The translations under genes and the position numbers were made by a program. The notes beneath the pieces are model-generated. The model was not told where the DNA came from. It did no database searches and worked only from the letters and a program-made list of their open reading frames with translations. A stretch of DNA of 64,000 bases from Paramecium tetraurelia (Eukaryota). Numbering within the stretch: the stretch's first letter is position 1; the number at the start of each line of letters is the position of its first letter. Below are positions 1,072-56,632 of the stretch, in pieces. Where the stretch lies: assembly GCA_000165425.1 (NCBI GenBank), contig CT868096.1:1-64000 (forward strand). Direction: 5' to 3'.

Positions 1072-4000
1072 TCAATCCATAAAGTTGAAAACAATGAATA
1101 TTTTGTGTACACTCCATAGTTTAATCCGATAGTACCTTATAGCAGGAGAGAAATTGACTGAAGTAACTGTTGATGAATGACCATTTAATTTGGCTTTTTA
1201 TTATCCTGTCTTAACATCCCATAAACGAATAGAGTTATCTCCACTACCAGATGCTAATGTAGTACCATCAGGAGAGAAATGGACTGATAGAATTCCATTT
1301 TCATGACCATCTAATTTGGCTATTTATTATCCTGTCTTAACATCCCATAAACGGATAGAGTTATCTTCACTACCAGATGCTAATGTAGTACCATCAGGAG
1401 AGAAATTGACTGAAGTAACTGTTGATGAATGACCATCTAATTTGGCTTTTTATTATCCGGTCCTAACATCCCAAAAACGGATAGAAAAATCCCGACTACC
1501 AGATGCTAATGTAGTACCATCAGGAGAGAAATGGACTGAATAAACAAAATGCGAATGACCATCTAATTTGGCTTTTTATTATCCTGTCTTAACATCCCAT
1601 AAACGTATAGAGTTATCTTAACTACCAGATGCTAATGTAGTACCATCAGGAGAGAAATTGACTGAATAAACTGCATCAGAATGACCATCTAATTTGGCGA
1701 ATTATTATCCGGTCTTAACATCCCATAAACGAATAGAGGAATCTGAACTAACAGATACCAACGTAGTACCATCAGGAGAGAACTTGACTGAAGAAACTGC
1801 ATCATCATGACCATCTAATTTGGCTTTTTATTATCCGGTCTTAACATCCCATAAACGGATTGACTTATCCAAACTACAAGACGCTAACATATTACCATCA
1901 GGAGAAAAATTGACTGTGTTAACATATCTTGAATGACCATCTAATGAATATATATCATTAATCTTTATTCTCTTCCATTTGCACCCAAACATTTAAGCTC
2001 TATTTAGATTAATTGCATTTATGTTCACATCAGTCAATTCAGATTAGTTTAAATTACTTTGAAAAAAATTTCCTCCAACTATGGAAGTATTTTTGATTCT
2101 TATTTTCTCAAAATTGTGATTAGTTAGATCAATTTACATCTCAACTAATAAATTCAGTGAGTTAGATCCTCCCTATATAAAACTACTTTCAATGGCCGTC
2201 AATTGAACCAGAAATTTCAAAAACTCAATTATTGATACTTCATTTTTTATTTTTTAGATTAAATACTTTCTAGATTCTACATATGTTTCAATAGAATAAT
2301 TATCTAAAAAAAATTCATGTTTATTCAATGTTTTCAAAAGACTTAGCGTTGATTCAATATTTTTTTTAAAAGCATTTACTTTCAAATCTCTAATTAAAAC
2401 ATGAAACTTAATTATTTTCTCTTAATTTATTAAATGTGGTGAATATTCTAACCAATTCTTATCATAATTGTTCTCTTTTGATAGCTATTCTAATATCCAA
2501 TTGAATGTCTGCTTATTAAGTTCTTTAGATACCACTAATACAGAATATAAATCAGCCGCTATATAAAACTCTTGAATTGACTTATGGACAAATTAAAAGT
2601 TATTACCTTTTTATTTGATTAGAGAGCAACTTCTTAAATCCTTCTTATAAGAACCAAATTAATGATCATCATCATTAAAAAATTCATTTTACCACTTTTC
2701 ATCTTCTCTTTCTTCTTAATACAAAAATCCTTATTATTAATATTAAACCTATGTCGTTTATTTTGCACTCATTACTTTCGCAAGATTGATTGAATACTTT
2801 TTTAAGTCATGTAAGAACCTATCAATATGTAATGATTTTCCCAAGTTTCTCTACTTTTCGATTTATTGATGATGATATTAATTAATAAATTCATCGTAAA
2901 AGTCAAAACTTGTAAGATTGAGTTCAGATAATGCATTGCGAACAACTTCGATCATTCTATCTTTCAGAATGCTAATTTTTTAAAATGAATTGTTGAAGTG
3001 TTTAAGGGAGTGTTCGAAAAAGAGATTTTTGTTAAGATTTAATTCTTGAAAGTGGATAGCGATTGAACTTTCTTCCATTTTATTCCAGACCTCAACAGCA
3101 ATTTCAAAGTAATTAATTTTATCCAAGTTTTCCACATCGGTTTAGGTAACCTGTTATTCTTTTTCATTATTATCCTGTTTTTCTTTTTTCATTATTATTC
3201 TGTTATTCTTTTTCATTATTATCCTATTATCCTATTTCATTAATTTATTCTATTTCATTATTATTCTATGCTCTATACTTTTTCTTTTGCCTATTATACT
3301 TTTGAATCAAATAGTTACTTTTGTAAAACTCATAAAGCATAATTGGGAAGTTTTTTAGAAAATTTAATCTCAAATTGATTATCTCTGAGGCCTTCTCCAT
3401 CATTTTAGGCAACACTTAAACTATTATTTCCATCATATAGGGAGTTTCTATCAATCTATATAAATTTATTTGATTCATCATCTTTTCATACTTTTCAACA
3501 CTCCATAGTTTTTATAATTTTACCATTAGATTTCTTAAAGCTTCAACACTTTTTAAATTAAAGAATTAATTAATCTTCAAAAATGATAAAATATTATCTA
3601 TTTCTTTTTAATTCAAAAGAGCTTCACTATTAGCCTTTGTTGCCTCCAAACTCAAACACTATTCAAACAATTTTTCCCAATTAACTTCAAAATTATTGAT
3701 ATCCTACTCTCCTCGGTTTGAAATTTAAGATTACCATTCATATAATTCGTAAATCAACATTTTAATACTTTAAATTGCAAACTTTTTTAAATATTATTTT
3801 ATTTTTTTTAGATTAAATTTTTCAAGCTGAACTTCCTTTAAATTTTCTTTTTTTTCAGGTGCAAACCATAAGGCATAATTAACGCTTGTAAAAATTTCAC
3901 TTCTTGTAGTAAAAATAACAAGTGGGTCTGACCAATTCTATTTGACTTTATTATTCATATATAAATTTTTCTAAATATTCTCTAGTTTCATTTCATCATA

Positions 4001-7000
4001 GCTATCCATTATCAATAACAATCTAAATTCATTTTTCTCTAACATCTCTTTGCATTCTTTTAATTAAAGATCGTCAAAACCGTACTCATCTTGATGAAGT
4101 GTTTCCTCTACTGCTTAAAATACAGGGTTTTTTAAAGAGGGTAAGGAAATATAAATGGGGATGAGAATTCGATTTCTTATTTTTTTATTATTGTTATGTA
4201 ATTTCCAAATAAATTCTTCTATTTTCTTAGCTGTCGTACTTTTACCAGATCCAGCTACTCCATGAATTAATAACACTGTTTCTTTCTCTTCTAATAAAAA
4301 CTCATTCACTTCTCCTTTTGTATCATTAATTTACTCCAAATTTATCAAGATACTCTCCTCTTTCTTTTCGTCTACTATTGCTTTATGATAAATCTCCTTG
4401 GTTTCTAATGGTACGTAAATGGATTTTGTATTCTTAAGTGCAGCTTCTTTCAACACCTTCCATTTTCTAATTTCAAATAATTATTCAACAGATTTTCCTC
4501 TCAAGAATTTAATATCGTTACCTATGTTTTTGAGTTATTCCTTCATTTCATTGATTTTCCCCTCCACTCTAATCAAGCCTTTTCTGATATGATTAACAAA
4601 ATCGGTTAGCAGTCTCAATTATTAACCCATTTCACTAATATTTTTAATGTATTAATCTAATTGCTCTGTTGTTTCATCAAGTTCTTTAAGGCACAGATCT
4701 CGTTTGTTGAGATTAGCCTCATGAGAAATTTATTCTTACAATTCATCAATTCTGCTCAACATTTCCTACATTTCCCCTGCAATTCTATCTTATTAAGTCT
4801 ACCAATCTTTCGATAAAATCTGCATTTACATACTTATCAATTTTTCATTTTTCAAAAGGTTTCTAACTCTTAGATCTTTTTCTTGAACCCATAATTCAAT
4901 TAACTCTTTTTAACAAAATTGAGTAATTTTTTCTGCAAAGCTATGCAATGAAATCTAAATTATTGTTAAAACTAATCCCTATTTAATTTTCCATTCATCA
5001 TTATTGTATTAATCTTTAGAGAATTGATCTTACTGATTGGTTTTAACTTCTTATTCCTCATAATTTTCTTATAGGTATAATATTTTACTTAATTAAATTA
5101 GGTACTCTTGATCAAACTAAATTTCTATGAATTTCCACTTAGACTTCATTAGCTTTTCTTTTGTTTCAGCCATTAACTAATAGAGAAAATGAACAATATT
5201 TATTATTTAAGTATTCTTTTAATCTGATTAATTTTCATCATACAAGTTGATCGAAATTCTTGAAAAGTATTCTTTACTTGATTCTGTTTCATATTATTTT
5301 AAATTCGCAGTTGTGAATTGATATTCCTTCAATTGGTTTAACTGGTTTTAAAAACAACTTAAAAAACCTATATACATCTCCTCATAACATTCTTATAGAA
5401 CATCACGACTTTTAGTAAAATTTTTAACATTTTCAAAGAATTATGCTAACTTTTGCCTGGTTTATCTAGCTTTAATTTACAATAATTATAGAATGTTAAT
5501 AATGATTGATAAATTTTTTCTATTTTGGTTATTAGATTCGTCCTTATCTTCTTCCTTGATCTTATCATATTTTGTTTTTAATTCATTAAATTTTACTTTT
5601 AAATCATTTATTCTTTTTATGATTGGCATTCTAAAAATTTCCAGTTCTTAGTTAATGGAAGCTTTCAATAATTTAACAACATTTTCAACCAGTAATTGTA
5701 TTTATTCTCCTTCCTTGCAATTTTCTTAGTAGTTAATTTTTCTTAATTATTATAGTAATATCTCATACTTTTATCTCTCAATTTTCAATTAATCTTGATT
5801 GAGATTTTTATTTTCAATAATGTTTATTGATTAGTCTATAGAAAAATTTCTTATAAGTGTCATAGTTAAAGAATTAGTTTCTTCAAATAATTCTCCAAAC
5901 TCCTTTTCAATTAATTCTAAATGTATTCTTTCCAAATCAATCATTTTTTCTTCTAAAGTTAATTAAAATATAAGAAGATCTAAACTTCCTTTTAATATTA
6001 TTAAATTATTTTAATAGTCTTGTTATGTAATTTCTAACTTCATTAAATCAGCAATAGCCTATTGGTATATTTAACTGTCACAGCAGATTATTTGTTTTGG
6101 ATAACTCTAAATTACATTAAGAGGAAACCCATCTAAATTGATTTCACCTAGATACTTTAAAAATTCTTATGATGGAATTGAGAATATATTTTAAAAACAT
6201 TCTTTGAAAGTGATTAATTGCGATCTAAGTTTTAAAATATTCAGTCTTTGTTAGTGTAGAAATTAAAATGAAACTTACTAAGAATATTTTTTTTAAATTT
6301 CTTTCAATTATTCAGGTGAAGAAACAGTGTCTATTTCATACTGTAAAATTAGAAATGTCTACAACCTTAAATTTAATTCGTTAAATTAATTTTGAAGTTC
6401 TTAGATCTGGTGTTCATAATAAGAATTAAGGTTATTCAATAAACATTAAAAGTATTAAATTAAGCTCTTCTTTTGAAGTAACAAAATTTCTAGCTCAGAG
6501 ACTTATTTTACAGTTTATTCAATTAGTTTTAGCATGCATTAAGCTTCTTTCAAAAAACTTCTCAAGTTAGGAGTTGCACTAATTAAGGCAATTAGCTTCT
6601 ACTAAAACTTATTTAAGAAAGAAAAATTTTCTTCTGTTAGATTTAGATTTTATAATTACTTCTAAATCTCTTCTAACTATTATTACATCACTTTACTTTC
6701 ATTAGGTTCATTTTTCTTACTATTAAGATCTTAAATTGCTTATGATAATATTTATTCTAATAGTCTCAAAATGTATTTAATCTATTAAAAAATTTAAAAT
6801 TCATTATTTTTTTTCTAATCAAATTATTCTAATTAAAAGTTTTATTTCCTCTTACTTAGCCTAATAATTTTAATGATTTTTAGGGCGTTTTGGAAAAATT
6901 CTTTGAAGTTGAGATTTATTTTTTTTAATTATGAATTATGCTTGGCTTATTCTATTTTGGCATCAAAATACATATTTTATTTGATAAAATTTAAAAAATC

Positions 7001-8359
7001 TTTAACTATGATCCCCAATCTCTCATAATTTTCCTGAATCAAAGCTAGCAATTTATTGGAAATGATGAAATCAAGAAATTGTTAAATTTTGCAGATTGTC
7101 TTTTATTCATCTTTTTAGGGTTCTATACTTCCTAATTTTAATTTTAAATAAGAACCAAATGTGAAATAGATATTATCAGTTTTTTAATTCACTAAGAAGT
7201 CTTTAAGCAACATGAGGTTTTCCCATTCTATGAAAGTGTCCTCTAGTATTAATTTATCAATTTAAGATAGTTCTTTATTTTTAAATTAATTTAGTAAAAC
7301 CAAAGCTTAGTCATTGCTATGATTCAATTACATTAGAAACCCTTTGTTCTGATATTCCTTCCACATGAAATTTGATTTGGCTTAAAAATTGAAGGGGCTA
7401 GTAAGCTGGTTTAATTTTTTTTTTGTTATTAGAGGATGATAAGTTATGATTTTTCCAATCATTTAAATCCACAAAAAATGATTTTTCCAATTACTTTAAT
7501 TTTTCACAAGATTTTCGTGTATTTTATTCATATGTAATAGTATTTCTTCCAAATTCTAGCTGTCATTTTTCAAATTATTTATGATCTCCCATTACAAAAT
7601 ATCTATTTAAAAATAACTTTCATATTATTTTCTATTTTTCTAGACTGTATAATCATCATAAAGCAGAACGGCTCCCTTATACAATGATTTAAACAAATCA
7701 ACACTAGGTTTCATATCAAATATTGAGTTAATGATACCTTCTAAACAACCATGTAAAATATCTTCCCTTTCTTTACCATTATTTGGGGCCATCTGAAAAG
7801 AAGTTTAAGTTAGAGAAAGGTAAAGTTCCAATTATATTTGAATTAAATCATTTTTCTCTATTGACATTTCTTATCTTAATTGATCACAAATATCCAAAAT
7901 TTGATTCTAAGTATCCCAATTTATGAACCTTTACGCTTTTCTCATATGGAAACTAAATATCACTTTAGATAGAGATGCGGATATCCTTAAGATAAATAAA
8001 CTTTTAAATGAATCCGTTCTGATGTAGATTAAACAACTTTTCAATAATTTTTAAATTCCATCTATAATTAAGTTGTATGATTTCATGACCTTTTCTTCAT
8101 TTTTGATGAGTTTGTAAATGTTTTCCTCTTAAAAAATAAACCATTATATGGCTATCATTATTTCTTAGGCTTCTGATTAGTTAGCAGCAACAGTTGCTTT
8201 ACTAGAAATAATTTAGACAATAGAATCAAATCTAGTAATGAAAATATCTGTATCATAAATATCGGACTTTAAGTCTACATCTGTGTAGGGAATTGTTTTA
8301 GTAGATCCACAACCACCTCCACGTAATGTGGATGTTACTTTATCCAATAGGCCTGACAT
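1072..8359 (-). CDS. NACHT (STAND NTPase) + pentapeptide + WD40-repeat protein, NLR-like NWD family, ~2430 aa; one +1 frameshift or cryptic intron near 3190
   Basis: ATG 8359 [21 protein letters not shown]; Walker [10 protein letters not shown] (~4240-4262); Walker [29 protein letters not shown] winged-helix motif; GSNSLNLL plus pentapeptide-like [25 protein letters not shown] repeats; TGA 1072-1074. No intron needed in the stretches I translated except at the frameshift. Confidence 0.9.
1141..1945 (-). repeat. Tandem 126-bp (42-aa) WD40 repeats, 6 complete plus 1 truncated
   Basis: GH codons recur every 126 bp (~1934, 1808, 1682, 1556, 1430, 1304, 1178); consensus [42 protein letters not shown] with very high DNA identity. 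Confidence 0.95.
3151..3270 (-). repeat. Coding minisatellite, ~24-bp unit (QDNNEKEQ), inside the NWD gene
   Basis: Repeated units cag gat aat aat gaa aaa gaa taa on the minus strand, with degenerate copies upstream. Confidence 0.8.
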
Positions 8360-9299
8360 TATTAATAACAATTTAAAATTATAAATCAACGTCAGTATAA
8401 AAATGATTACAACCTAATTTTTTATTATAAAATAATTTTTTCTTTTGAATAATAAAAATTTTCTTTTTATTACAGATATATAATCAAATCTCATATTTTT
8501 ATGTATAGATATTATTTTATAAAGTTCTCCTTTATTTTAGCCCTTCACATTTGTGATTCAATTATTTGAATTTTAAATGCCACTATCAAATTCCAAATGT
8601 AAGAATAGTCAGTCCATTTTATCTTTCTACGAGAGATAGGTAAAACGAAAATCATTTATTATTCTCACTATGATTATCTGAGTTTATTCACCATAGTTTT
8701 TATCAATGAATCATTAATACTAAATCAGTTTAATCTTTCAATTTTTTTATAATAGAGTATGAAATCTTTAAGATAGAGGATTTTTGCTATAGTATGCTTT
8801 ATACCTAATTTTAAAGCATTAGTTTAAACATTTAAATAAAATTACAACTGAGGATTAGATCTTCTTATAATTAACAACTTAATTAATTATACTTTGAATT
8901 TGTATTAAATTATAACTCTTTCTAGACTTATTTTATTCATTAACTCCCTTATTTGAATCATTGAAGATTAATTATGACTTTAAGAAACAAAATGAAGAAA
9001 TTGAACAAGATTTTATCAGCATTGAATGCGTAAAAAGGGTACTTAATATTAATTCAAAGCTTTCATTTTTGATTGCCAAGCAAACAGAATCGATTTAATC
9101 TACAGATTGCCTTATAATTAATAGAAGGAGAAATCTCAAAATATCCTTTATAATTAAAAGTCAAAAGCCAATAACGATAATTATAAAAATTTTTCAAACA
9201 AAATTATAACTCGAAGCTACAATGATAATGTATTCTTAGGTGGTTAATGAGCTGCTTAAAATAACCTTACAATAAAAATAATATTCGAATCAAGTAAGA

Positions 9300-26477: not shown

Positions 26478-28932
26478 TCAAAATACTCTGCATTAACAAT
26501 CATCCCGAGTTGATTTACGATTTTAGGTCTTGCTTTTTACTTTTGTTTTATTTTAATTGCTTTTAATCATTTATTCTAATGCAGTTTCATCAATTATCAC
26601 TAAATTATCTTATTACTAAATTAAAATTAGATTTACCTCGCTTTATTTTATAAATGGCCTTGCTGATTATGAAGCTTCCACGGTAGACTGTAACCTAATT
26701 GCTTTCTTAAAATTATTTGGGCCAAACTCATCATTTGATTTACCTAAGATCATTTACAATTCATTTGAAATTTAATTTCTATCTTTGTGCTTGTTCTTTG
26801 ATTCAGTAAAAACTAAATCCTGGTTTTATTCAACTTTAGCTTTATCTTAACTTGGAAGTATTTCTATAACTTCAGTGTTTTCTGTCTTTTAAACCTAATT
26901 GTTACTTATTTCCCATCCTTTTTTTTCTTTCTCTTTTTTGGTTCCGCAAAATTCACTTTGCTTTTGTTCTTTTCTTTTTTGATTAATTTATGCAGAAGGA
27001 TCAAAAATCAAACTTTAGTCATTATTTTCCAATTAATTTTATTAAGTTTCTATTCTGGAGAGGTCTTGTTTAATGAAAGAAGAATTTAGGGATTTAGTTT
27101 CTTTACAATGACTTTTGATTCTTTATGTTTATCTTTTTAAGAAACTATCCATAATTAAACATGCTTTTAAAATATCCTTTCCTTCTTTTTTTTCTTAAAT
27201 AAAGGCATTTCCTGATTAAATGGCTCTCACCGCTGTTTTAAACTTTTGAGTTACTTTTACATTTTTAGTTTCCTCTTCACTTGATTCACTTTTTTCACTT
27301 TCTTCTTCTTTTTTCTCTTTTTGTTATACTTTATTAGTAGTATTCTAATTTTGTTATTACGATTATTCTAATAATTGTCTTTATGATGATATTCCTCCCT
27401 GTACGCTTTCTTAATCAATTATTTTTCCATAATTTGAATATTATACAGTATTGCCTGTGCTTTTGATAATGCCGTCAAATTTTATTTTAACATATTATTT
27501 TAGTTTCTTAAATCCTTCTTAGCAAACCATAGAATACAAAGATTAGATTAAATCTTCCCTTTCTATTTTCTGATTTCTTACAATATTTTCATCAGTAAAT
27601 AATTAATGACACTAAATTATTTTATAAATTTATTGCTTCGGCATTAATTAAAAAAATTTCTTAAAAAAGCCTTCTAAGCATCTTTATAATTCAGTTCTAC
27701 TAAAAGATTACTATCCGTAATAGTGAGAATTCAGGTATTTTTAGAATTTTTAGGTGAAGTATTTTTCAGATGCCCATTAAGAGTACTATGCACAATTCCA
27801 TAAAATCAATATCTTAGTTAAATTTAATTATTTACTTCTAAAAAAACTGATTGATTTACATTATTTTTTTGTTATTTGATTTTTAAACAATTTTGATGAA
27901 CACATAATTTGAGTGCTAGAAAATCAATAATTTTGTGAACTTTGATTTTTTTTGTTTCTTCTTATGTTTTTGCATCTACTTGCATTATTTTACTTAATGA
28001 TTATAAAATTTATTAAATAACATCAAAGGTCATCCATTTTTGAATGTTTTTAAACTTTAAAAGGATATTTTCAACGTCTCGATAAGATAATTTATAAGTA
28101 TTTTTTTCTTTGAAATAATCAATTCCCATTTCTTTTAAAATAGAAATCAGACTGGTTATATTCTTTATTTCTACTTCTTTTCCTTTAATGGTTTCAATCC
28201 CTTTTATAATCTCTAAACGTTTTTATTTATTCTTAATTTCTTAATAGGAGTATTCTAAATAAAAACTTAAAATATATGGGAAAATAAGTAAGTAATCAAC
28301 TTTGCTTTGGTCTTCTGGCAACAAAAAATTCTCGGAAATGTCATCAATTTATTTTTATGTTAATTTACCTTCAAAAGCATCTGCTTCAATTAAAGTTCTA
28401 TCACTAAACACTTTAAATTTCTTATGTCCCAAGAAATCAAGGACAATGGTGAACATTTTCGTCAGTTCTTTCCTTTCTAATGTAAAATTTTTGTTTGCAT
28501 CAAAAGATGCATAAAAATCAATGTAGAAATCATGTAAATCCCTCACTGAAATAACGGAAAAAAAATATATAAGTTCCCTATGTTAAAATGAATAGAATTA
28601 CGGATGAAGCACACTTATATCATTATATGTTTCCATATTCATTAAAGGTTTGCTGTTGGTTAATAAGGAGAATCCTTTCTTTTTTTGGTCTTCTTCTACT
28701 TTTGAAAAGTTAACAAGCATATAAAATATGGTGTAAAAGCTGCAATCTTAATTACGAACAAAAAACTAAAAGTCTAATCAAGTAGCTTTATATTCTTACC
28801 TTCTCCATCTTTCACTCCCTTTTTAGAGGAATTGAAAGATTTAAAAAATGAGGAGGGTTGCTTCATCAATTTACCATGCTTTTCATCTTTTTCTTTATTT
28901 TGAGATAATGATGTTTCTTTCCTTGAAATCAT
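26478..28932 (-). CDS. EF-hand-like protein with C-terminal CaaX-like motif (paralogue A)
   Basis: DFYASFDANKNFTLERKE loop; ends DDCQCRVF-stop; colinear similarity to 29029..31453. Confidence 0.8.
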
Positions 28933-29028
28933 AATGGAAGTAATAAATGTTTAGAAAACAATAATTTATTGTTAATAATTCAGAATTATAAAGTTATGAT
29001 AAAAATTGCAATTATATACTAAATTTAA

Positions 29029-31453
29029 TCATTATATAGAGCAATAATAACATGTTGAAGATCTATCTTTTGGTTTTTTGCCTTTAGCTAAATTCTATTA
29101 ATACAAAATTTAGGTTTATAATTAAACATCATCTATAACTACTTAGAATTTACCTTCGTCATCCCTAAAGTCCTAAAAATGAATAATTTTTATACATCAT
29201 CTGTAAGTTAAAATAACTATTATTTTGATTAAGAAGTTTGGAACATTACTTTGGATGCATCTTAAACAGATGGCATGTTTCCATAATAAGCATTTTTAAA
29301 ATTTTGAGGGCCATAATTTTTACCTTCTTTTCCTGCAACAGTGAAAAGGTCGTTAGATTAGGATTCAGAATTCTTTCTTATGTCTTTAATAACAATCTAT
29401 GGTCGTTGTTATTGAAATAGTTTTTTGTCTTTTTTTTCTTCTCCCTGTTCTTTTTCTTATTCAGGAAGTGCTGCTTCAGGTGCTGTTAATTTTTTTGATT
29501 CTTCCATTTAAACTTTTTTAACTACGTTGGTTTTCACAGATGATACTTCTTCATTTTTGGAGCATGTCTCTAATAAAACTTCTTATTCATCAATTTTTGA
29601 AGCTGTAATATCGTTCTAGTTATATTTACTTTGCTGCATTTTCTAATGCATTTGAGTTTGTCTTTTTAAAAAGCTATCCATAATCAAACAAGCTTTGAGA
29701 ACATCTTTTTTAGATTCAGCCTTTTAAGCAAAAGCTTATTCTGAACTGATTACTTTGACAACTCGTTTAAGTTTACCTTTAGCTGTCAATTCTCTCTCAT
29801 GGTCACTCTCTTCTGATTCCGAGTTGTTTCTTTGATTGTGTTAATTTTATTAGCTTGAGATTTAAGATTTTTTTGATTTTTCATCGAATTTTGGAGACTT
29901 CTGTTATTTTTCACTTGATGGAGGAGAATGAATTTAGGAATCTTCATAAAAATCTTTCCCTTACTTTTAATATTAACTTACTCTATCTCCATTAGACTTA
30001 TTAACTCCATCATAACTTATTCGAATATACTCTTTTAATTTTCTGTAGCCATCCTTGCACATCATGTTAAATAATTCATTTACTAAACTTTCCGTAGTAA
30101 TAGGAGTTTGAATGATTTTCTTTCCCTGCACCTCAGGATGCTGCTCTAGTATGACTTTTATTAAGTCTTTTGGCATCAATTGAAACTTCTTCTTAAAGAA
30201 TGCTTCTAATATTTTTATTGCTTCCGGCCTTGATAATTGAGTCTAGTCTTTATAATGTTTAATAAGGAACTTGGAAAACTATTATTTGATTGTAGCTTCC
30301 TTCATAATCTACCCAAACATTGCTGTATTCCATAAAACTAAGATTTCTAAGTAAGCTGAAGGGGGTTTAGATTTATCCTTGTCTTGTTTGCTGATATTTA
30401 GGCAATTCTAATGAATGCATAATTTTAGAGCTAAAAAGTTTACAATTTTATAAAGCTTTAAAGGTTTTCCTTCATTCTAAGTTTTGGGATCAACTTCCAT
30501 CAATTTAGCAAGTTGATTTATTATTTACTTGATTATGTCAAATGTTATCCATTTTTATATGTTTTTTAATTTAATTAATACATTTTCAACATCTCTGTAT
30601 GTAAGACATGTTGTTCTCTTATCTCTGATATAATCTATACCCATTTCTTTAAGAATTGTAACTAAACTAGTGATGTTTCTGATTTCAACTTCTTTCCCTT
30701 TTAGAATTTCAGTGCCCCTCATCAAATCCAATCTCCCTTACCTATACTTTATCTGCGAATAGGTAAATTCCAAAAAAAACCCTAAGATGTAGGGGAATAG
30801 CAATAGGTAATCCATTTTTGATTCCTTATCCAAATCTCTAAAGTTGTCTATCATTTCATTGTAAACCTTGTCATCTAACTGATTATCATATAATGAAGGA
30901 TCGCTTAAGAAAAGATCAGTTATGACCTTAAATTTTTTTGCTCCCACACATTTATTTACAGCTATATCCAATAATTACTTAAATTCTGCAGGTTCTAATG
31001 AGAAATTTTTATTTTTATCAAAAGTAGCATAAAAATCAACATAAAAGTCATGAAAATCTCTAATTGAGATTATTTGGAAATAGTATACTAGTTCACTAGA
31101 ATATTAAAATATCTTACGTTCTTATATAACGTATATCCTCAACCTATTTTGTAATCGGTGCGTATGAATTAAGTGGAGTTAAAACTGATTATTTTTTCAA
31201 ATATTATTCCATTCCATCAAAATTTAGAAGCAGATACATTAAAATTCTCACACAGTGATCCTATCCTTTGGTTAAAAATTGTATTTCTAAAAATTCACAT
31301 TTATATACCATCTTCCTGAGGTTTAAACAAAGTATTGGAAAATTTTGAAAAAAACGATTTCTATCCGTTAAGATTTTTACTCGTGTTCTAACGAGCTAAT
31401 GACCCCTTTGATAGATTACTGTCTTATCTTTCATATGTATTTTGCTTTGACAT
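29029..31453 (-). CDS. EF-hand-like protein with C-terminal CaaX-like motif (paralogue B)
   Basis: DFYATFDKNKNFSLEPAE loop; ends TCYYCSIQ-stop after two tiny introns; shares KGKEVEI.NITSL..ILKEMGIDY and LKACLIMDSFLKRQTQ with paralogue A. Confidence 0.8.
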
Positions 31454-32024: not shown

Positions 32025-35000
32025 ATGAGTTAAAATATGAATTTATCTTAAAATCTTCGTTATGGATCTTTTATAAGAATAGCTGGCAAAGGGAACGGTG
32101 GAACTAAAGGTATTATAACTTCCAAAGGGTAACACCATCAAATATTGATCTGTTAGTTTTTTCGATCATGCTGTTTATTTCTAAACATATGAAGATATGG
32201 ATGATATCAATAATTTTAGGGACGGAATCTTTCAAATATTGCCTAGAGGAAGTTTTGAAATTCATGATGAATATTTGAAAGGAATGTAATTAAATCTCTA
32301 AAAATCATAGGGATAAATCACCGAGTTTGCAATAGAGGATGAAATCTGAAAAAGAGCAGTATTTCAATATGATAGATAATAAAATGAATGAAGAAGTCTA
32401 TTTTAGGTATTAATTTGAAAAATATTTTTGTACAGTTCAGAAGTAATATTTTAGCATGTCGAATCCGGACAGTATTTAGCCTGTTCGGAAGAGTGCAGCG
32501 ATTCAAGAAGTGATAGCTTTGGACTAAAACTATAATAATTTTTATCCAGCAGAATTATATTCAAAATGGAGCCAAGTAAAAGTTATCAACAAACAGGAAG
32601 GCCAATAATTTCCAAACAATCAGTCAAAATCCAATCTGATATAACGAAGTTTTGGATCGATAAAAATATGAGATAGCCAGTATAATTGGATCATAAATCG
32701 ACTTAAGCTGGATTGAAAATATAATTAAAAGGATTATAAGAAGATTCTCACAGATATGAATTGATTGTCAGCCATTATTCTGACAGTGAATGGAAAATAT
32801 AATTATATGATAATTATGAGAAGCACTAGCAAAATAAATTAAAGCTAAAAACCAACGAAGTAGTTACTTTTAAATGTCCTAAAAATGAAGCATATTTAGG
32901 AGCTGATTTATAAAATAACACTATTGTTCTTAAACCAACTTTGCACAACTAATAAATACCTGTAGAATGTTTATGGGAGCTACAATTCCAAGAAAAACCA
33001 AATAGTGAATTGCCAACTATAACATTATAACCTAGAACCTTAGCAGCAATACGACATTCATTTTTAGGATAAAATAATCTATTTGTTCCTAATGTAAACC
33101 AATAGTACAATTAAAAAAATGCCACAGAAAATTAACAATAAAATTAATCTAAATTTAAGAAAAATATCTAAAAGTAGTTAAGATTAAGACATGTAATGAC
33201 TGGCAAATTGTTATTTTGTTAAGATTTATTTGATGCTGATGATTGTTTTCCAGCAATACTATCTGATGATTCATGCACAATAGGCTTGTAATTGGCAAAT
33301 AGATATGAAAGAGAATTTATGGATTTATCGTATGTTAATTTAGTCAGAGATGATAATGTACTTACATCAATTTCAACAAAATAATCAACGAAAACTTTAA
33401 GTGATGTGCGCATTAAGAAATCAGATAAAATACAAGGAACAAATGGATTCTTTAAATAGTTAATATAAGAAAAAGATAGTATAAAATGTGGTTTCAGGGA
33501 TCGAGCATTTAGTAAACCATTCATTATTCAAAGAGTCAAATAATCATTTTTTAAAATAGTCTTACAACCATTTTCAGCTTATGGTTAAATGCTATACTTT
33601 GTTCAATAGCTATAAACAAACCCTTTGAATTTTCCTTATGTGATCCCTCCTGAAAGAATGTATTAAATTTAATTTTTATTGAATCGACTGCATGAATATT
33701 TAATGGATAAAATTGATATAAGTGATGAAAATGCAGATGATTTACCTATTTTTGAAAGATAAATAATCCTCAAAGAACTTTATTTCATTGAAATATTGGT
33801 CGAATTGCTGTATCATTTATGTTATAAAAAAGGAACCAAAAAATTATAGGTTTGGAGAAAACAAAAGGAAAACATTTAAACTATTTTTTCATCCACATAT
33901 TAATTGATGACAAAGCTCATCTAAAATAATATGGTAACAAAACTTTACGCATCTTAATGGCTTGAGATGTTCCTGCATTAATATATGAGTTTAAATTAAC
34001 CTGCCATTCAAACTTTCCTTTCCGAAATGTTAGATAATAATAAAGAGGCAATACAAAAATTCTTGAATGAAAATATCATCAAAAAATTGATAGAGCTTAT
34101 CACATAGTAATCACCTCATGACAAATATCTAAAGATCTTGAATGCAATCTGTGTTTCTAGCAACTAAGCTATCAGAGAAAATCAAAGACTAGTTCTGGAA
34201 AACTTTTTTAAAGTTGTTGCTCCAAGTACAGCATGTTATTTTATTATTATTTAGATTTCAAATTTGATTTTAAGATAAAATAAGGCCATATTTACATTCA
34301 ATCAGCGGAAGAATTAACATATTCTAGATGGTAGAATTTAGAATAATTTTACAAATCCAGTTTGATGAATGATAATTTAGAATACTGGAATTATTTCATT
34401 AGTTATTTTGATTTATTAGGAGATGTAGCGATGAATAGATTTGCATAAGCTAAAGAGTTCATTGATTAAAATTACTCATTGGAAATATTTTGCATGATCT
34501 TACATGAGGCATAATCATATCACATGTTCAATTTGATGAAACCTTTTTTAAAGTTGATTCGATATGCTTATATAGACACTCCCCCTTACTAAAAGTTTAA
34601 GAAATTAAGAGTTATTTAATTTAAAGATTTGTAAGGCGATTTTATTGATCATTCAACAACATTACCAAAAACAAGTCCATTATTGGATGTAATGAGGTTT
34701 CTATTATAGCAATTAGAAAATATAGATTAATTACACAATAATATTGAATATTCTAAAAACTTACAATCAGTTCTATAATTACTTAAATGTTCAATAGAAA
34801 TGCAATTTTGGGTTGATATGGATTAGATAAAAGTAATATTAACTGCAATGCTATAACATTTGCTCAAGTATTAAGAATTTTAAAATGATTAAAGATTAAA
34901 TGGAATCTCCAAATGTTTAACTTAGTTCTAAAAGTATTATCCAACTGAGTAAGTTGTATTAATCTGAAGAGAAAGAAACTCACATTCATAAAAAAATCAA

Positions 35001-38000
35001 ATCGACCAGACTAAATGAAACAAATAATATATTTATGACATGCAAACAATTAGCCTGTGAAATAATTAATACCATTTTTGATCTAGAAAATAATATAAGG
35101 GTATTTACATGCTCCAAATTATTTAAAGAATAATTACTATAGTTAGATCTAGTAGATCCTAATTTGGCTAATATCAATAATAATTAAAAGAGTTTAAAGA
35201 CGAGCATTGATGTATAGAAAATGTCCAAAAAGAGCAATGCTTTTATCAAAGTGATTTAATAAAAGTTCAAAAATTAAAATATTGCTGAAGAGAAAAACTT
35301 ATATGATATAACTAATTGGATTAATAAATTTAGGTAGATAGTCTCTGATAGATCTTTGTCCAATTTTGAAAATTTTGAATTGATATTTGCTGAATTATCA
35401 TTTTATGAAAATCTCTATTTACCGAAATATTCCTTAGAAATTCTATCTAGAGCCTATGGATAAAGAAAAGAATTAATTTAAAATTTTGAAAAAGTAATAA
35501 TTGTTGTTTCTGGTAAAACTCAAGAACTAAGTTTATTAACAAAGCAGATCATGAAAAAATTAAATATATTGTATTAAACTGAGTTCTACACTATGTATAA
35601 GGAAACTAGCAATAACATTAGAACAAGCTTAATTTGGTACCATTCGAATGAACATTAGAAGGCTGGTCTGATGTAAAACCTTTTTCAATTAGGATTGTAT
35701 TTAAAAAAGGACTTTGATAAAGGAAGGTCGTTGAATCCTTTAAATTTTGAAGATTATAAACCAGAAAACAATTCAACTATAGCATTTTGCGAGAGGGAAT
35801 AAAATTACAAATTACATTAAGCAATTTTAATAGCTGAAGAAATTCACATACCGCTATTAGAATATATCTATAAATTTAAAGCAGATTAATCAACTATCTA
35901 TTGGAAATTCTTACATTCTATATATGATTTTATCACAATTCTTATTTGGAACAACTAAGAGAATAAATAAATCATCATAAATAACAAATAGTTGATGTAG
36001 AGCATAGAGCAACATCTAAAATTTAATATTGGAGCCATTGATTTTTTGAAGGCTTTGTATGCAAATAATAAATCATTGTTACTTAGTGAAAGGGAAATGA
36101 CACTTATATTGAATTCTGTTGTGCCAGTATGCAATGAAGAGCCCATCAATAGTTATTTTAAATCGAAAACATTAGACTTCATCAAAGCTTTATTGTTATT
36201 TAATTCTAATTATATCACATCAAACCAAACTGTAGTCCTTCAGAAGCTACAAGAGAAATAGTTCAATAAAATAATATTACAATTTAATATTTATGATGAC
36301 TAAACTCCGATTTCTCCAGGTGAGAACAATTTTAGTGATGTTACTTCTTCATTAGACAGCGAAATCGATCAAGAGACTATGATATCAGAGTTGGTAATTA
36401 AAAATTGGATAAATTAATATGAAAAAAGCTATGAGAATATTGGCTATGGATTTCATGAATTGTACATCTCCCCAGAATTAACATACCTTTACACTTTCTT
36501 TTCTTTGTTTAGTCAATTAATTGAGGAAAAGCATATGATAAATATAAAGAAATGTTTGAAAATTCATAAATTCAATGATTTAATACTACTGCTACATCTG
36601 GCTCAAGATTGCTGGCCTTTGAAAAGACATCTCCGAGCATATATTAATCGATTGTATTATAGTAAGGTAAGTGATAATTTTGATTTAATTGTCAAAGTTG
36701 ATTTGGTGATTATGATTGATGATTTATAGAAGATTATAGACTATTTAATATTGCCATAGCATTCTTATATGGCGATGACAATTATTAAAGCTCCCATTAG
36801 ATATAAGTATTTAATGAGTTATATATACTTAAACTTGGAGGAGATACTAATATCATTAAATAGTTTATTTTTAAACGAGTAGTTCCTTGAGTATTTGGAA
36901 GAATTAATACTTTTCAACTAATAAAATTCAATTTATAGATTACACTTCTAATTATTTGAGATTTGCTAAAAGCTTTTGATAATTGAAAAAATCTACGTTA
37001 AAGAAAACTTGGGTCATTTGTGTTAATTATTATTGGATGTATTTTAAAGTATAATCTCTGGGTTTGAAACTAAAATATTATTGATGAGAGAAGGCTTGTA
37101 TATAAGTATGATTGAGGAAATGCTCTTATCTCAATACATCAAGGGCTCGAATCAATAGGATCTGACAAAGACTTAGGTGAGTAAATTATAGCAAATTTAA
37201 AGAAATAGAGAGATCTACAAATAATTGTAATAGAATAGTCATGATTCATCAGTTAAATAATATTTGGTTCATTAGGTATTCTGCTTAGATTAATAATTTG
37301 TTAAAGAAAGTAAATTACAAAGTACTTTAGAATTTTGGAAAACCTAATCCAAGTAAAGATATAAATCATTTAAGTAAGACATGAATGATTTAATAAATCA
37401 TAAGTTAAGAAGAATTATGAATAATTGGAGCTTTGTTCCTTAATTCTCATAGTTTCTAGATGAAGAATTTTATGAAGTATGCAATAAGTTATCTTCAATT
37501 GGTAGGCAATCTTAAGATGCTTATTAATCGAAGTACGAAGTGACAACACTTTAAGATTATATCTAAAACATCATTTCAATCTGTGGAAATACTAGAGAAT
37601 AACAATTTTCTGATGATATTAGGATTTTCTTTTTGAGATTGCTTAGCAGATTAATTACAGAGAAGAATTTAAGTAATAAATAAAAAATGGTAGAGGTGGA
37701 TCTTTGGACCAGTGAATTTTGGATCGATTATAAATAAGAAATAAATCATGCTTAGAATTTACTTGCAAAATGTGGTGCATAAGATTTGATCTTATTAATT
37801 TTATCAGAAAGCTTTTTAGAAATTAATTTATCATTGTTAAATGAATGTCTCTTATTTTCAATAGCATTTTTGTTAGGAGGGAATACTTAAGCATAAAATG
37901 CAATTTTATTGAAATTAAAATAAGATTCACAAAATTAAATATTAACTAACATCAAAATCATCATCACAAAATTAACTAAGGTAATCAATAATAATTTTTC

Positions 38001-50965: not shown

Positions 50966-50983
50966 TTTATATAAATATTAATA

Positions 50984-51555
50984 ATGATTACAGGCAATCT
51001 GTTCAGAAAGGTTTATCCTTTGAAATTTGGATTCTCCACTTCCTATGCTGAATTAATAGCTTCTAATAAGGCTAATAGAGTGTAAGATGTGGGAAGTTTG
51101 AAAGAGTTGTTAGATTCAATTTATTAAACTAAACCATATTTACATTGCATTATCTTCAACTAAGTTGGACACCCATAGTATAGATTTTATTAAACTAGCT
51201 ATTCAAAAGTGAACGAAATGTACAATGAAATTTCTAATTAATTCGTTGGTTTTAAATTCTATAGGATTAATGTCGACAATCTAGATAAGACAGCCCAATT
51301 CTTTGGAGTCAAAGTACACATTTACCAGCTATTGATTAGAATCCTCCAACTTCACTAATATATGGTCTAGGCTCCCCATTAGCCAAGCATGTGGGCCTGG
51401 GAGTGAAAAATCTCTAAATCAAACTAGAGACATCATAAGCGTTAACCCATAACACTGATTTCATTCCAGGCACTGAGTAATGGGAAGGTCCATAAGATTT
51501 GTGGAGGGCAAATTATCAAGATGAGTAAGAGCCATTCGATTATTTTGCCCGTTGA
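50984..51555 (+). CDS. Thioredoxin-fold protein without CxxC, probable mitochondrial presequence
   Basis: MITGNLFRKVYPLKFGFST; YNEISNQFVGFKFYRINVD..AQFFGVKNPPTSLIY matches the Trx C-terminal half; one intron. Confidence 0.7.
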
Positions 51556-51692
51556 TTTCATTAGATCATGCATACAACAACATATAACACCTTTTATTAT
51601 TTTTCGAATATAATGAGAAATCCAAATATATAACTAGCCCTTTGTATTGGGACAACAATATATCAATGAAAACCGCTGAGAATTTTCATCAA

Positions 51693-51763
51693 GCACTGTT
51701 AGTATAAGGGTAGTATACAAGGTTGCCATCCTTGTGACACGAGTTCGAGTCTCGTACAGTGCA
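51693..51763 (+). tRNA. tRNA-Gly(GCC)
   Basis: Acceptor GCACTGT/ACAGTGC-A; anticodon stem CAAGG/CCTTG with loop TTGCCAT; T-arm ACGAG-TTCGAGT-CTCGT; 71 nt. Confidence 0.96.
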
Positions 51764-51764
51764 A

Positions 51765-51771
51765 TTTTTTT
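51765..51771 (+). terminator. Pol III oligo-T terminator of tRNA-Gly
   Basis: T-run immediately after the discriminator base. Confidence 0.7.
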
Positions 51772-51805
51772 ATTTTTAATTAATATATATTTATAATATA
51801 ATTTC

Positions 51806-52764: not shown

Positions 52765-52943
52765 TATTTAAATTAATAATTGTGGAGAGTACACTAATAA
52801 AATAAAAATAACAATTTTAAGGGAATTGTAATTAGGATATTGTAAATGATTGCAAAATAAGAAAAACACTAAAATAATTGCATTTCAGTTATTTTAGAAT
52901 GAGTTTGAAAAATATCGTTTTTGTTTGCGTGATTAATTAATAA

Positions 52944-54297: not shown

Positions 54298-54375
54298 TTC
54301 ATATTATTATCACACATAATATACACCTTAAGAATAATTATTGTAACATTTGAATAATTCCTTATTATAATATCA

Positions 54376-55425: not shown

Positions 55426-55727
55426 TAAATCTTAATTAATTTATTTTTAATTATTCAACAACTCAGCATTTTCAAATATAAATTATCTAGATCTCCTCAT
55501 TAATCGAAATATCTCTCATTAAATTACATCTCAAAATTCTACCCTTCCCTCACCAATCATTATAATTTTGTAAATTTTGAATTTCGATTATCAAAAATTC
55601 ACATTTATTAATCAAATAACACATACACACACCAACCATTCACATCTTCATTTAACTCATCAATAAGATATCAATCAAAAATATATTAGATATACTAATT
55701 AAAATTCATTAAAATAATTCATTGTAG

Positions 55728-56570: not shown

Positions 56571-56632
56571 CATCACTCATACATTAAATAGAGAATGTGT
56601 CACCTGGTTTTGAATGAAGAAAAATTAATAAA

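What the first reader, a model, noticed from the sequence alone, without database searches (positions are those of the whole stretch)
1141..1945. HET-E-like WD40 array: homogenised scaffold with hypervariable surface positions
Seen: 126-bp repeats are nearly identical, including silent sites, yet differ sharply after GH (SRYVNT, DDAVSS, SDAVYS, SHFVYS, SSTVTS, ENGILS, SSTVTS) and at S-x-D-x (L/K, S/S, Q/N, R/F, E/N, G/N). The repeats at ~1430 and ~1178 share an identical variable cassette. Established: Podospora HNWD non-self receptors show this pattern of concerted evolution with positive selection on propeller-face residues. Inference: a repeat-shuffled recognition repertoire, i.e. an NLR-like innate immune or allorecognition system in Paramecium.
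Basis: partly seen in the sequence, partly recalled or inferred. Interest (0 to 1): 0.75.

Follow-up and report, generated by a model that had tools for sequence, protein, structure and literature searches.

The report
Paramecium NLR-like hypervariable WD40 gene
The repeats are the C-terminal WD40 propeller of an intact 2,419-residue NACHT ATPase gene of Paramecium tetraurelia; its blades share an almost identical backbone, down to codon choice, but differ at the ligand-facing loop residues, as in fungal non-self receptors, and its role in the ciliate is untested.

Summary
On the minus strand, read with the ciliate code, six full 126-bp WD40 units (1938..1183) and a broken seventh end a 2,419-aa gene. 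The gene runs 8359..1072 with one 28-nt intron and equals a public P. tetraurelia "NACHT domain-containing protein". Scaffold codons are homogenised beyond what amino-acid conservation explains: 403 of 446 same-residue codon pairs use the same codon (0.904; 0.426 expected from the gene's own codon usage). Differences pile up in unit codons 3, 4, 5, 7, 23 and 25. These have the same spacing as the Podospora HNWD high-dN/dS positions 10, 11, 12, 14, 30 and 32. In the fold they lie in the D-A and B-C loops and at the start of strand A. The same positions are the most variable in 142 units from 12 other Paramecium family proteins. The gene is therefore an NLR-like STAND protein (unknown helical N-terminus, NACHT, WD40) with a HET-E-like repeat regime. 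It is not a HET-E family member, because it has no HET domain. Not shown: exchange between paralogues, allelic variation and any immune role. This copy's array is short and ends in a decayed unit. Verdict: a new ciliate member of a known kind, of moderate interest.

The parts
1072..8359 (-). Whole gene. The CDS is 8359..3319 plus 3290..1075, with stop TGA at 1074..1072. It encodes 2,419 aa under the ciliate code (TAA/TAG = Q).
   Evidence: Removing one intron reproduces protein P0001 (P. tetraurelia 'NACHT domain-containing protein') exactly.
3291..3318 (-). 28-nt intron (GTA...TAG) that joins the two long ORFs in frame.
   Evidence: It is the only GT..AG removal of 18-44 nt that gives P0001. 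It explains the apparent ORF overlap and frameshift seen.
4310..8359 (-). N-terminal region of about 1,350 aa. It is all-alpha or coiled-coil-like and belongs to no known family. It carries a conserved LRGGGCG motif at aa 12-18 (8326..8306).
   Evidence: No Pfam match passed threshold, NCBIfam gave nothing for aa 1-430 and the Atlas gave no usable hit. 75 representatives match at E<=1e-3. The AF2 model of aa 1-430 is helical, with pLDDT 75-94 for about aa 40-200. It has no PDB fold match at E<=0.001.
3779..4276 (-). NACHT NTPase domain (aa 1362-1527). Walker A is GVAGSGKST at 4261..4235. Walker B is [10 protein letters not shown] at 4021..3992.
   Evidence: Pfam PF05729, E = 2.5e-9, 37.6 bits against a cut-off of 26.7. 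The motifs were read from the sequence and located.
3150..3242 (-). Low-complexity linker encoded by a 24-nt tandem repeat (3.8 copies). One unit has 25 nt, so the same DNA repeat is read in two frames (NRIIMKK... then DNNEKEQQ).
   Evidence: TRF; translations; coordinates.
1990..2115 (-). Pentapeptide-repeat-like stretch directly upstream of the propeller.
   Evidence: Pfam Pentapeptide_4, E = 1.3e-5, 25.5 bits, below the cut-off of 38. Several relatives carry PF00805 or PF13599 in their precomputed domains.
1183..1938 (-). Six complete 126-bp / 42-aa WD40 units: 1938..1813, 1812..1687, 1686..1561, 1560..1435, 1434..1309 and 1308..1183. Each unit is one four-stranded blade.
   Evidence: unit HMM, E = 2e-29 to 5e-31. 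Pfam WD40 matches six stretches. The AF2 model has 24 confident strands. The best PDB matches are 7-bladed highly repetitive propellers, with TM 0.85-0.87 and rmsd 1.6-1.9 A.
1075..1182 (-). Seventh, decayed unit and the C-terminal tail. The first 40 nt are identical to unit 5 ([13 protein letters not shown]). After that the DG..LASGSxDxS part is missing ([12 protein letters not shown]...). The AF2 model is not confident here.
   Evidence: HMM positions 1-13 only; weak gapped nucleotide similarity beyond; no further units in any frame. In one search pLDDT is below 50 for model residues 320-342.

Best explanation
The array encodes the ligand-sensing WD40 propeller of a STAND/NLR-type NTPase. 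The protein has an unknown helical N-terminal module, then NACHT, a helical linker, a pentapeptide-like stretch and the WD40 array. It belongs to a Paramecium-specific family with many paralogues.

Shown here:
- The domain order and intact Walker A and B motifs.
- Blades whose backbone is homogenised at the DNA level. This implies recent unit duplication, unequal crossing-over or gene conversion inside the array. The edge units escape it most.
- Replacement of whole codons at six positions per blade (3, 4, 5, 7, 23, 25). These lie in the D-A and B-C loops and at the start of strand A, which form the conventional top, partner-binding face.

Inferred:
- Diversifying selection keeps these residues different while recombination keeps the rest alike. 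Each array, and the family as a whole, then presents many different binding surfaces.
- Binding of a cognate molecule to the propeller relieves auto-inhibition of the NACHT domain. Nucleotide exchange and oligomerisation follow, bringing the N-terminal modules together to signal. This is the general STAND/NLR model, taken from established knowledge and not tested here.
- The most likely biological context is recognition of non-self, such as intracellular bacteria, symbionts or viruses. Fungal-type allorecognition is less likely.
For: Architecture: NACHT scores above the Pfam cut-off and there are six WD40 stretches. The gene is intact, with one intron, and identical to P0001.

Homogenisation: the same codon is used in 403 of 446 scaffold pairs (0.904), against 0.426 expected and a maximum of 0.552 in 2000 simulations. 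For units 3-6 the figure is 178 of 186 (0.957).

Hypervariability:
- 12 of 12 nucleotide columns in codons 5, 7, 23 and 25 vary, against 28 of the other 114.
- pN at these codons is 0.673, against a scaffold pS of 0.125. The JC-corrected ratio is 12.5 for units 1-6 and 25.7 for units 3-6.
- At least 16 of 36 replacements fall in 4 of 42 codons (P = 5e-8).

The site set was defined in advance. Podospora HNWD codons 7, 9, 25 and 27 flank purified consensus codons (PMC1805685 passages). Positions 10, 11, 12, 14, 30, 32 and 39 are the ones used in PMC12222747.

Independent data agree. In 142 units from 12 other proteins, positions 5, 23 and 7 rank 1-3 by entropy. In 54 units of six homogenised arrays (six of them this gene's own) the top six are 5, 23, 4, 7, 3 and 25.

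The variability is specific to one face. Mean entropy is 2.03 bits for the top loops and 0.13 for the bottom loops in this gene. It is 3.01 against 0.83 in 48 units of five other homogenised arrays. Loop assignment comes from DSSP on the AF2 model.

Repertoire:
- 139 distinct position 3-7 cassettes among 148 units.
- Repeat number ranges from 5 to 18, and 5 of the 13 arrays have 14 units.
- The NACHT tree shows species-restricted clades.
- All 39 named hits among 42 are Paramecium.

Cassette copying inside the array: units 5 and 7 share a 42-nt exact run.
Against: - Inside the variable codons pN/pS is about 1 (1.05; 0.92 for units 3-6), because both classes are saturated. A site-wise omega above 1 is therefore not demonstrated. 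The argument rests on comparing variable-codon change with scaffold silent change.
- Only six units of DNA were available. There is no allele, strain, orthologue or paralogue DNA.
- Exchange between paralogues is not shown: 0.949 against 0.926 best-match scaffold identity.
- The scaffold is 0.82-0.95 identical across species at protein level. Purifying selection alone could explain that part.
- Amino-acid identity between units is 0.77 (0.81 for units 3-6). This is below the 85% used to define high internal conservation in fungi (PMC4986451 passage).
- This copy has only six blades plus a decayed seventh, which the model does not place. Relatives mostly have 14 units. [quoted passage not shown]
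- The N-terminal module matches no death or effector domain.
- There are no expression or functional data.
Confidence: 0.6

Rival explanations
1. A young array with neutral drift. The units arose by very recent tandem duplication, and the loop positions are simply unconstrained, so no selection for diversity is needed.
For: Silent divergence between units is low: pS is 0.054 among units 3-6. TRF scores the 252-bp and 378-bp periods as well as or better than the 126-bp period (offset-252 identity is 0.855 against 0.832). Units 5 and 7 share a copied cassette. PMC5587647 (passages) reads highly repetitive WD40s as young duplications.
Against: Neutral sites should diverge like silent sites, by about 0.05-0.13. 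Instead the a-priori codons are saturated (pN 0.64-0.67), and codon 23 has six different codons in six units. The equally exposed bottom loops are nearly invariant, at 0.13 bits against 2.03. The same positions are the most variable across 142 units of other proteins.
Confidence: 0.1
2. This copy is decaying, non-functional or mis-assembled. The pattern is inherited from functional relatives, but this array is truncated by deletion, or collapsed in the assembly, and no longer forms a working sensor.
For: There are six units plus a broken seventh, against 14 in 5 of the 13 family arrays analysed and 5-18 overall. The seventh unit and the last 23 residues are modelled with pLDDT below 50. The six blades superpose on 7-bladed propellers, which leaves one slot open. 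The gene models of P. tetraurelia paralogues P0003 and P0009 also end in a unit that reads like a frame-shifted WD repeat. Short-read assemblies of such repeats come out too short or wrong in Podospora (PMC12222747 passages).
Against: The 7.3-kb reading frame is open end to end with a canonical intron. The Walker A and B motifs are intact. Beyond the break, unit 7 keeps weak in-frame similarity to a unit (IKLWSV against IRLWDV), as expected of an old terminal unit and not of an assembly junction. The residues before the first GH (DIYSLD) could supply the closing strand; this is an inference.
Confidence: 0.2
3. It is a housekeeping STAND scaffold with one fixed endogenous partner, comparable to Apaf-1, TEP1 or NWD1-type proteins. 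The blades differ because an asymmetric binding site needs different residues in each blade, and these are kept by purifying selection.
For: Every WD40 protein has blade-specific top-face residues. Some cassettes recur between paralogues: ENGIL in P0001, EYGIL twice in P0003, and SDGIL in P0003 and P0010. The neighbouring genes are ordinary signalling genes, not a defence cluster.
Against: Ordinary WD40 proteins do not share codon-level identity between blades (the PMC1805685 passage gives 10-20% protein identity between repeats of ordinary WD proteins). The family is large, species-restricted in its clades and variable in repeat number. It has 139 distinct cassettes in 148 units. That is the profile of a receptor repertoire, not of a single conserved machine. 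No TROVE, CARD or other housekeeping-type partner domain was found.
Confidence: 0.15

Closest known systems
Podospora anserina HNWD / NWD genes (het-e, het-d, het-r)
   Same: Both have a NACHT domain followed by 42-aa / 126-bp WD40 units. The backbone of the units is highly conserved while a few positions are hypervariable. These positions share the same spacing: HNWD 10, 11, 12, 14, 30, 32 against 3, 4, 5, 7, 23, 25 here. In both, the consensus V and D between them are purified. Both can end in a truncated terminal unit, and repeat number varies within the family (PMC1805685 and PMC12222747 passages).
   Different: There is no HET domain; the N-terminus is an unrelated module of about 1,350 aa. 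Unit identity is lower, 0.77 amino-acid against about 0.85. HNWD position 39 corresponds to an invariant V here, while positions 10 and 38 vary here. Exchange between paralogues, repeat-number polymorphism and a recognised ligand are documented in Podospora and untested here. The two lineages, a ciliate and a fungus, are distant, so the regime is either convergent or very old.
Fungal NLR-like proteins with highly internally conserved WD/ANK/TPR repeats (Dyrka et al. 2014)
   Same: Both have a tripartite architecture of N-terminal module, NOD and repeats. Repeat conservation is combined with variable sites on the binding surface. The families are lineage-specific and variable (PMC4986451 passages).
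   Different: That survey covered fungi, with plants and metazoa for comparison. In the passages I read there were no ciliates. The N-terminal module here is not one of their effector classes.
Highly repetitive WD40 propellers of bacteria (Thermomonospora curvata, PDB 5yzv; Nostoc, PDB 2ymu) and the Hu et al. 2017 'HR WD40' class
   Same: These are the best structural matches: TM 0.85-0.87, rmsd 1.6-1.9 A and 47-48% identity. Internal identity here is 0.77, above their cut-off of 0.7. Their supplementary list already holds 9 P. tetraurelia entries.
   Different: Those are catalogued for stability and recent duplication, not as receptors. The main text of that paper does not mention Paramecium or NACHT (0 occurrences).
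Animal NLRs and Apaf-1, plant NLRs (the general STAND switch)
   Same: A central P-loop NOD with intact Walker motifs and a C-terminal repeat sensor. Apaf-1 also uses WD40 repeats (recalled).
   Different: No LRR, CARD, PYD or TIR domains. The NACHT region gave no PDB sequence hit at E<=0.01 and only a weak PADLOC match.

Membership tests
STAND / NLR-like NTPases (NACHT clade) | NACHT-type P-loop NTPase domain with Walker A and Walker B motifs | tested here: met
   PF05729, E = 2.5e-9, 37.6 bits against a cut-off of 26.7. GVAGSGKST and [10 protein letters not shown] are present.
STAND / NLR-like NTPases (NACHT clade) | C-terminal superstructure-forming repeat domain (WD40, LRR, TPR or ANK) | tested here: met
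   Six WD40 stretches. The propeller model has pLDDT above 90 over units 2-6. The best PDB matches are 7-bladed propellers.
STAND / NLR-like NTPases (NACHT clade) | N-terminal effector or adaptor domain | tested here: inconclusive
   A conserved module of 1,350 aa is present, but it matches no Pfam, NCBIfam, Atlas or PDB fold.
STAND / NLR-like NTPases (NACHT clade) | Ligand-dependent nucleotide switch and oligomerisation | not testable with these tools
   Requires biochemistry.
Podospora HNWD (HET-E/HET-D/HET-R) family | N-terminal HET cell-death domain | tested here: not met
   No HET match in Pfam scans of the whole protein.
Podospora HNWD (HET-E/HET-D/HET-R) family | 42-aa WD units with high internal conservation, about 85% at amino-acid level | tested here: inconclusive
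   The unit length is identical (42 aa / 126 bp). Identity is 0.77 for units 1-6 and 0.81 for units 3-6, and 0.90 at the scaffold positions. Codon-level homogenisation is clear.
Podospora HNWD (HET-E/HET-D/HET-R) family | Hypervariable or positively selected residues at the propeller interaction surface (positions 10, 11, 12, 14, 30, 32, 39) | tested here: met
   Six of the seven equivalent positions are the most variable here and in relatives. They lie in the D-A and B-C loops. A formal omega above 1 is not demonstrated. The mapping rests on spacing and consensus, not on an alignment to HET-E itself.
Podospora HNWD (HET-E/HET-D/HET-R) family | Concerted evolution with repeat exchange between paralogues; repeat-number polymorphism between strains | tested here: inconclusive
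   Homogenisation within the array is shown. Between paralogues only protein data exist, 0.949 against 0.926. No strain data are available.
Podospora HNWD (HET-E/HET-D/HET-R) family | Genetic role in allorecognition or incompatibility | not testable with these tools
   No functional data.
Highly-Repetitive WD40 proteins (Hu et al. 2017) | Internal repeat identity of at least 0.7 | tested here: met
   Mean pairwise identity is 0.767 by my own calculation, which is not their exact procedure. The definition comes from PMC5587647 passages.

The most novel reading that the evidence does not exclude
Paramecium carries a large, fast-turning-over repertoire of intracellular NLR-like receptors. Their WD40 sensors are diversified by the same 'homogenise the backbone, vary the binding face' mechanism known from fungal allorecognition genes. 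They are coupled to a so far unknown 1,350-aa helical signalling module that also occurs on its own. The system would act in recognising intracellular bacteria, symbionts or viruses. That would show that this way of generating receptor diversity arose independently, or is ancient, in alveolates, and would give ciliates a genetically tractable innate-immunity-like system.
Probability: 0.3. Interest if true: 0.8.

Novelty: new member of a known kind. Interest (0 to 1): 0.55.

Why it matters
NLR-like receptors with internally conserved, surface-hypervariable repeats are documented in fungi, and highly repetitive WD40 proteins have been noted in bacteria. I found no paper describing them in ciliates. 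Five full-text searches gave only incidental co-occurrences. The one trace is a bare list of nine P. tetraurelia accessions in a supplementary table.

If the family is a recognition repertoire, several things follow:
- It extends this diversification mechanism to alveolates.
- It offers candidate sensors for the long-studied Paramecium-endosymbiont and killer-particle interactions (background recalled, not from a call).
- It points to a new N-terminal signalling module.

If it is not, it is still a clean natural example of within-gene concerted evolution with site-specific diversification. It is also a warning that such arrays may be mis-assembled in ciliate genomes.

Tried and rejected
1. Frameshift or pseudogene at the ORF overlap 3164-3258. 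This was my first reading. I rejected it because a 28-nt intron at 3318..3291 restores the frame and reproduces P0001 exactly.
2. An intron or hidden continuation after the broken 7th unit. The unit HMM finds no WD unit in any frame downstream, and the only units in the whole window are these seven.
3. dN/dS computed inside the variable codons is uninformative, at about 1, because the codons are saturated. I replaced it with a comparison against scaffold silent sites and with the codon-usage control.
4. Concerted evolution between paralogues. The nearest-neighbour result (P0009 units nearest to P0001) looked supportive, but the best-match comparison is 0.949 against 0.926. I therefore do not claim it.
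5. Identity of the N-terminal module. All of these led nowhere: Pfam, NCBIfam, the Atlas, AF2 plus Foldseek against PDB (0 matches at E<=0.001, TM <= 0.27), and Pfam on 16 of the 75 representative hits (only NACHT/AAA further downstream in 3).
6. NACHT region against PDB by sequence gave 0 hits. PADLOC gave one weak hit, PDC-M16A at E = 2.6e-4. NCBIfam gave only sub-threshold P-loop noise.
8. Not used: complex prediction (no partner to test), genome contigs (bacteria and archaea only) and the closed viral and metagenome collections. Paralogue and strain DNA therefore stayed unchecked.
Full report
WHAT IS THERE

The window is AT-rich (GC 0.22-0.35) and reads as ciliate DNA, with TAA and TAG as glutamine. 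Tandem Repeats Finder reports one strong array at 1143..1945: period 126, 6.4 copies, 83% matches.

On the minus strand the units start at 1938, 1812, 1686, 1560, 1434, 1308 and 1182, in exact register. Each unit translates as a canonical WD40 repeat, [42 protein letters not shown].

The seventh unit is identical to the fifth for its first 40 nt and then loses the DG..LASGSxDxS part. The protein ends 23 residues later, at TGA 1074..1072. A unit HMM finds no further unit downstream in any frame, or anywhere else in the window.

THE GENE

Two long minus-strand ORFs, 8494..3164 and 3258..1072, carry a NACHT domain (PF05729, 37.6 bits against a cut-off of 26.7) and six WD40 stretches.

I first read their overlap as a frameshift in a 24-nt tandem repeat. 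That was wrong. The best database hit, P0001 (P. tetraurelia macronuclear 'NACHT domain-containing protein', 2,419 aa), is reproduced letter for letter by removing one 28-nt GTA...TAG intron at 3318..3291 from a CDS that starts at 8359.

The gene is therefore intact and already in public databases under a generic name. Its layout is as follows.
- About 1,350 aa of helical sequence with no known family.
- NACHT at aa 1362-1527, with Walker [10 protein letters not shown] and Walker [11 protein letters not shown].
- A helical linker containing a low-complexity repeat.
- A pentapeptide-like stretch, below the Pfam threshold.
- The WD40 array.

IS THE PATTERN MORE THAN CHANCE?

Two separate claims were tested.

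(a) Homogenisation down to silent sites. At the 34 scaffold codons, 403 of 446 pairs of codons encoding the same residue (M and W excluded) are the identical codon, a fraction of 0.904. The codon usage of the 2,131 non-WD codons of the same gene predicts 0.426, and 2000 simulated arrays never exceeded 0.552. For units 3-6 the figure is 178 of 186. Amino-acid conservation plus codon bias therefore cannot explain the likeness. The units share recent DNA ancestry, through duplication, unequal crossing-over or conversion. The edge units diverge most: unit 1 is 74.6-83.3% identical to the others. That is the usual signature of unequal exchange in tandem arrays (established knowledge).

(b) Localised hypervariability. 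I fixed the test set before counting, from the Podospora literature. Paoletti et al. 2007 report strong positive selection at repeat codons 7, 9, 25 and 27, which flank purified consensus codons 8 and 26 (PMC1805685, passages). A 2025 study classifies HNWD repeats by positions 10, 11, 12, 14, 30, 32 and 39 (PMC12222747, passages). By spacing and by the flanking consensus V and D, these correspond here to codons 5, 7, 23 and 25, and to 3, 4, 5, 7, 23, 25 and 32. I did not align against HET-E itself.

The results are as follows.
- 40 of 126 nucleotide columns vary, including all 12 columns in codons 5, 7, 23 and 25 (P = 2.9e-7).
- At least 16 of 36 amino-acid replacements fall in those 4 of 42 codons (P = 5e-8).
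- Codon 23 has six different codons in six units.
- pN at these codons is 0.673, against a silent divergence of 0.125 in the scaffold (0.640 against 0.054 for units 3-6). The Jukes-Cantor ratios are 12.5 and 25.7.

A caveat must be stated plainly. Within the variable codons themselves pN/pS is about 1, because whole codons are replaced and both classes are saturated. A textbook per-site omega above 1 is therefore not demonstrated from these six units.

WHERE THE VARIABLE SITES LIE

AlphaFold2 on the last 342 residues (single sequence, mean pLDDT 75, above 90 across units 2-6) gives 24 strands, which is six four-stranded blades. DSSP places the unit positions as follows:

| Unit positions | Element |
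|---|---|
| 1-5 | D-to-A loop |
| 6-11 | strand A |
| 12-16 | A-B loop |
| 17-22 | strand B |
| 23-25 | B-C loop |
| 26-31 | strand C |
| 32-36 | C-D loop |
| 37-42 | strand D |

By the standard WD40 topology (established knowledge), the D-A and B-C loops form the top, partner-binding face. The Podospora papers place the equivalent residues on the interaction surface.

Mean entropy in this gene is 2.03 bits for top-loop positions 3, 4, 5, 23 and 25, and 2.25 bits for position 7. For the equally exposed bottom loops it is 0.13 bits. The variation is therefore not generic surface looseness.

Foldseek superposes the model on 7-bladed, highly repetitive propellers: T. curvata 5yzv (TM 0.85-0.87, rmsd 1.6-1.9 A over about 264 columns, 47-48% identity), designer WRAP-T, Nostoc 2ymu and WDR5. 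The six blades thus adopt seven-fold geometry. The seventh slot is left to the decayed unit, which the model does not place (pLDDT below 50 for residues 320-342).

THE FAMILY

A search with the NACHT region returned 42 proteins. All 39 named ones are from Paramecium: tetraurelia, octaurelia, pentaurelia, primaurelia, sonneborni and bursaria. The search scored only the 7,999 candidates sharing the most words.

Of the 27 proteins with unit-HMM hits, I analysed the 13 with substantial arrays. The 14 left out had 1-7 weak units. Of 172 units in these 13 proteins, 148 were kept. The 24 dropped were incomplete or lacked the W at position 30.

- In the 142 units not from this gene, positions 5, 23 and 7 rank first to third in entropy, and position 25 ranks ninth.
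- In 54 units of the six visibly homogenised arrays (six of them this gene's own), the top six are 5, 23, 4, 7, 3 and 25.
- There are 139 distinct position 3-7 cassettes among 148 units, and 146 distinct full cassettes.
- Repeat number ranges from 5 to 18, and 5 of the 13 arrays have 14 units.
- A NACHT-region tree was built from 22 of 25 proteins. Three with alignments shorter than 300 aa were dropped, including P0016, the probable P. octaurelia orthologue at 86% identity. The tree shows species-restricted clades: P0001/P0002/P0003 are all tetraurelia and P0004/P0007/P0019 are all pentaurelia. That suggests lineage-specific turnover, although sampling is incomplete.

WHAT IS NOT SHOWN

Exchange of repeats between paralogues is the core of the 'shuffled repertoire' idea. 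A nearest-neighbour count looked favourable: P0009's units are nearest to those of P0001, although P0009's NACHT groups with P. octaurelia P0010. But best-match scaffold identity is 0.949 to P0001, against 0.926 to P0010 and to P. pentaurelia P0012, a difference of about one residue in 34. Purifying selection on a near-ideal WD scaffold explains that equally well.

No Paramecium DNA other than the window can be reached with these tools. Nucleotide-level tests across paralogues, alleles or strains therefore remain open.

The P. tetraurelia models P0003 and P0009 also end in a unit that reads like a frame-shifted repeat. Together with the short array here, this raises the possibility of decay or assembly collapse. 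The Podospora long-read study found short-read assemblies of such 126-bp repeats unreliable, and alleles with fewer than ten repeats non-reactive.

MECHANISM

The best-supported reading is an NLR-like STAND switch. A propeller whose top face carries about 36 variable residues (six per blade) binds a cognate molecule. The NACHT domain then exchanges nucleotide and oligomerises, and the N-terminal modules signal. Only the anatomy is shown here. The switch itself is inferred from the STAND/NLR paradigm.

The N-terminal module is conserved in 75 representative proteins (54 at E<=1e-10). Several of them are short proteins that begin at residue ~1. These may be stand-alone forms or fragmentary gene models. 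Its first ~200 residues fold as a confident helical bundle with no solved relative.

COMPARISON AND NOVELTY

The gene works like a Podospora HNWD gene: the same unit length, the same variable positions and the same homogenised backbone. It is not a member of that family, because it has no HET domain. Its internal identity of 0.77 is also below the fungal 85% criterion (PMC4986451 passage). It does meet the 0.7 cut-off of the 'Highly-Repetitive WD40' class. That paper's supplementary list already holds nine P. tetraurelia accessions, without comment in the text (0 mentions of Paramecium or NACHT).

Five full-text searches and the passages I read turned up no description of ciliate NACHT-WD40 receptors. 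Papers outside the searchable library cannot be excluded.

I rate it a new (ciliate) member of a known kind, of moderate interest. The function and the between-locus dynamics remain open.

Noticed in passing
window 3150-3242 (minus strand, inside the gene): A 24-nt tandem repeat (3.8 copies) encodes the low-complexity linker. One unit has 25 nt, so the same DNA repeat is translated in two frames within the protein (NRIIMKK... then DNNEKEQQ). It first looked like a frameshift between the two ORFs.
   Followed up: partly
proteins P0003 and P0009 (P. tetraurelia paralogues): Both gene models end in a WD unit that breaks after FSPD and continues as what looks like the +1-frame reading of a WD unit (…ITLSVYGILRQD… and …[16 protein letters not shown]…). 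This could be a real frameshift, a missed intron or an assembly error in the repeats.
   Followed up: no
window 8306-8326 (aa 12-18) and alignment A1: A conserved LRGGGCG motif lies near the N-terminus of the family's N-terminal module (consensus). It could be a lipidation or targeting signal; this is pure speculation.
   Followed up: no
representative proteins P0044-P0050 and others: Many short proteins (438-818 aa) match only the N-terminal module, starting at residue ~1, and have no NACHT domain. They are either stand-alone forms of the module or fragmentary gene models.
   Followed up: partly
window 26478-28720 and 28980-30854 (minus strand): Two neighbouring genes of unknown family are paralogues: 58% identity over 169 aa (E = 3e-68) and 31% over 388 aa (E = 9e-42). 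This looks like a tandem duplication. Neither has a Pfam match.
   Followed up: partly
window 32566-40241 (plus strand): Three consecutive ORFs carry RIH, RIH_assoc and Ion_trans domains. Together they look like one IP3-receptor/ryanodine-receptor-type calcium-release channel gene interrupted by small introns.
   Followed up: no
window 48306-50777 and 58017-59651 (plus strand): A histidine kinase (HisKA + HATPase_c) and a Ser/Thr protein kinase. Both are ordinary signalling genes, so the NACHT gene is not in a cluster of similar genes.
   Followed up: no
window 50001-60000: GC content rises to 0.31-0.345, against 0.22-0.30 in most of the window.
   Followed up: no
window 62519-62610: AAT microsatellite, about 30 copies.
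   Followed up: no
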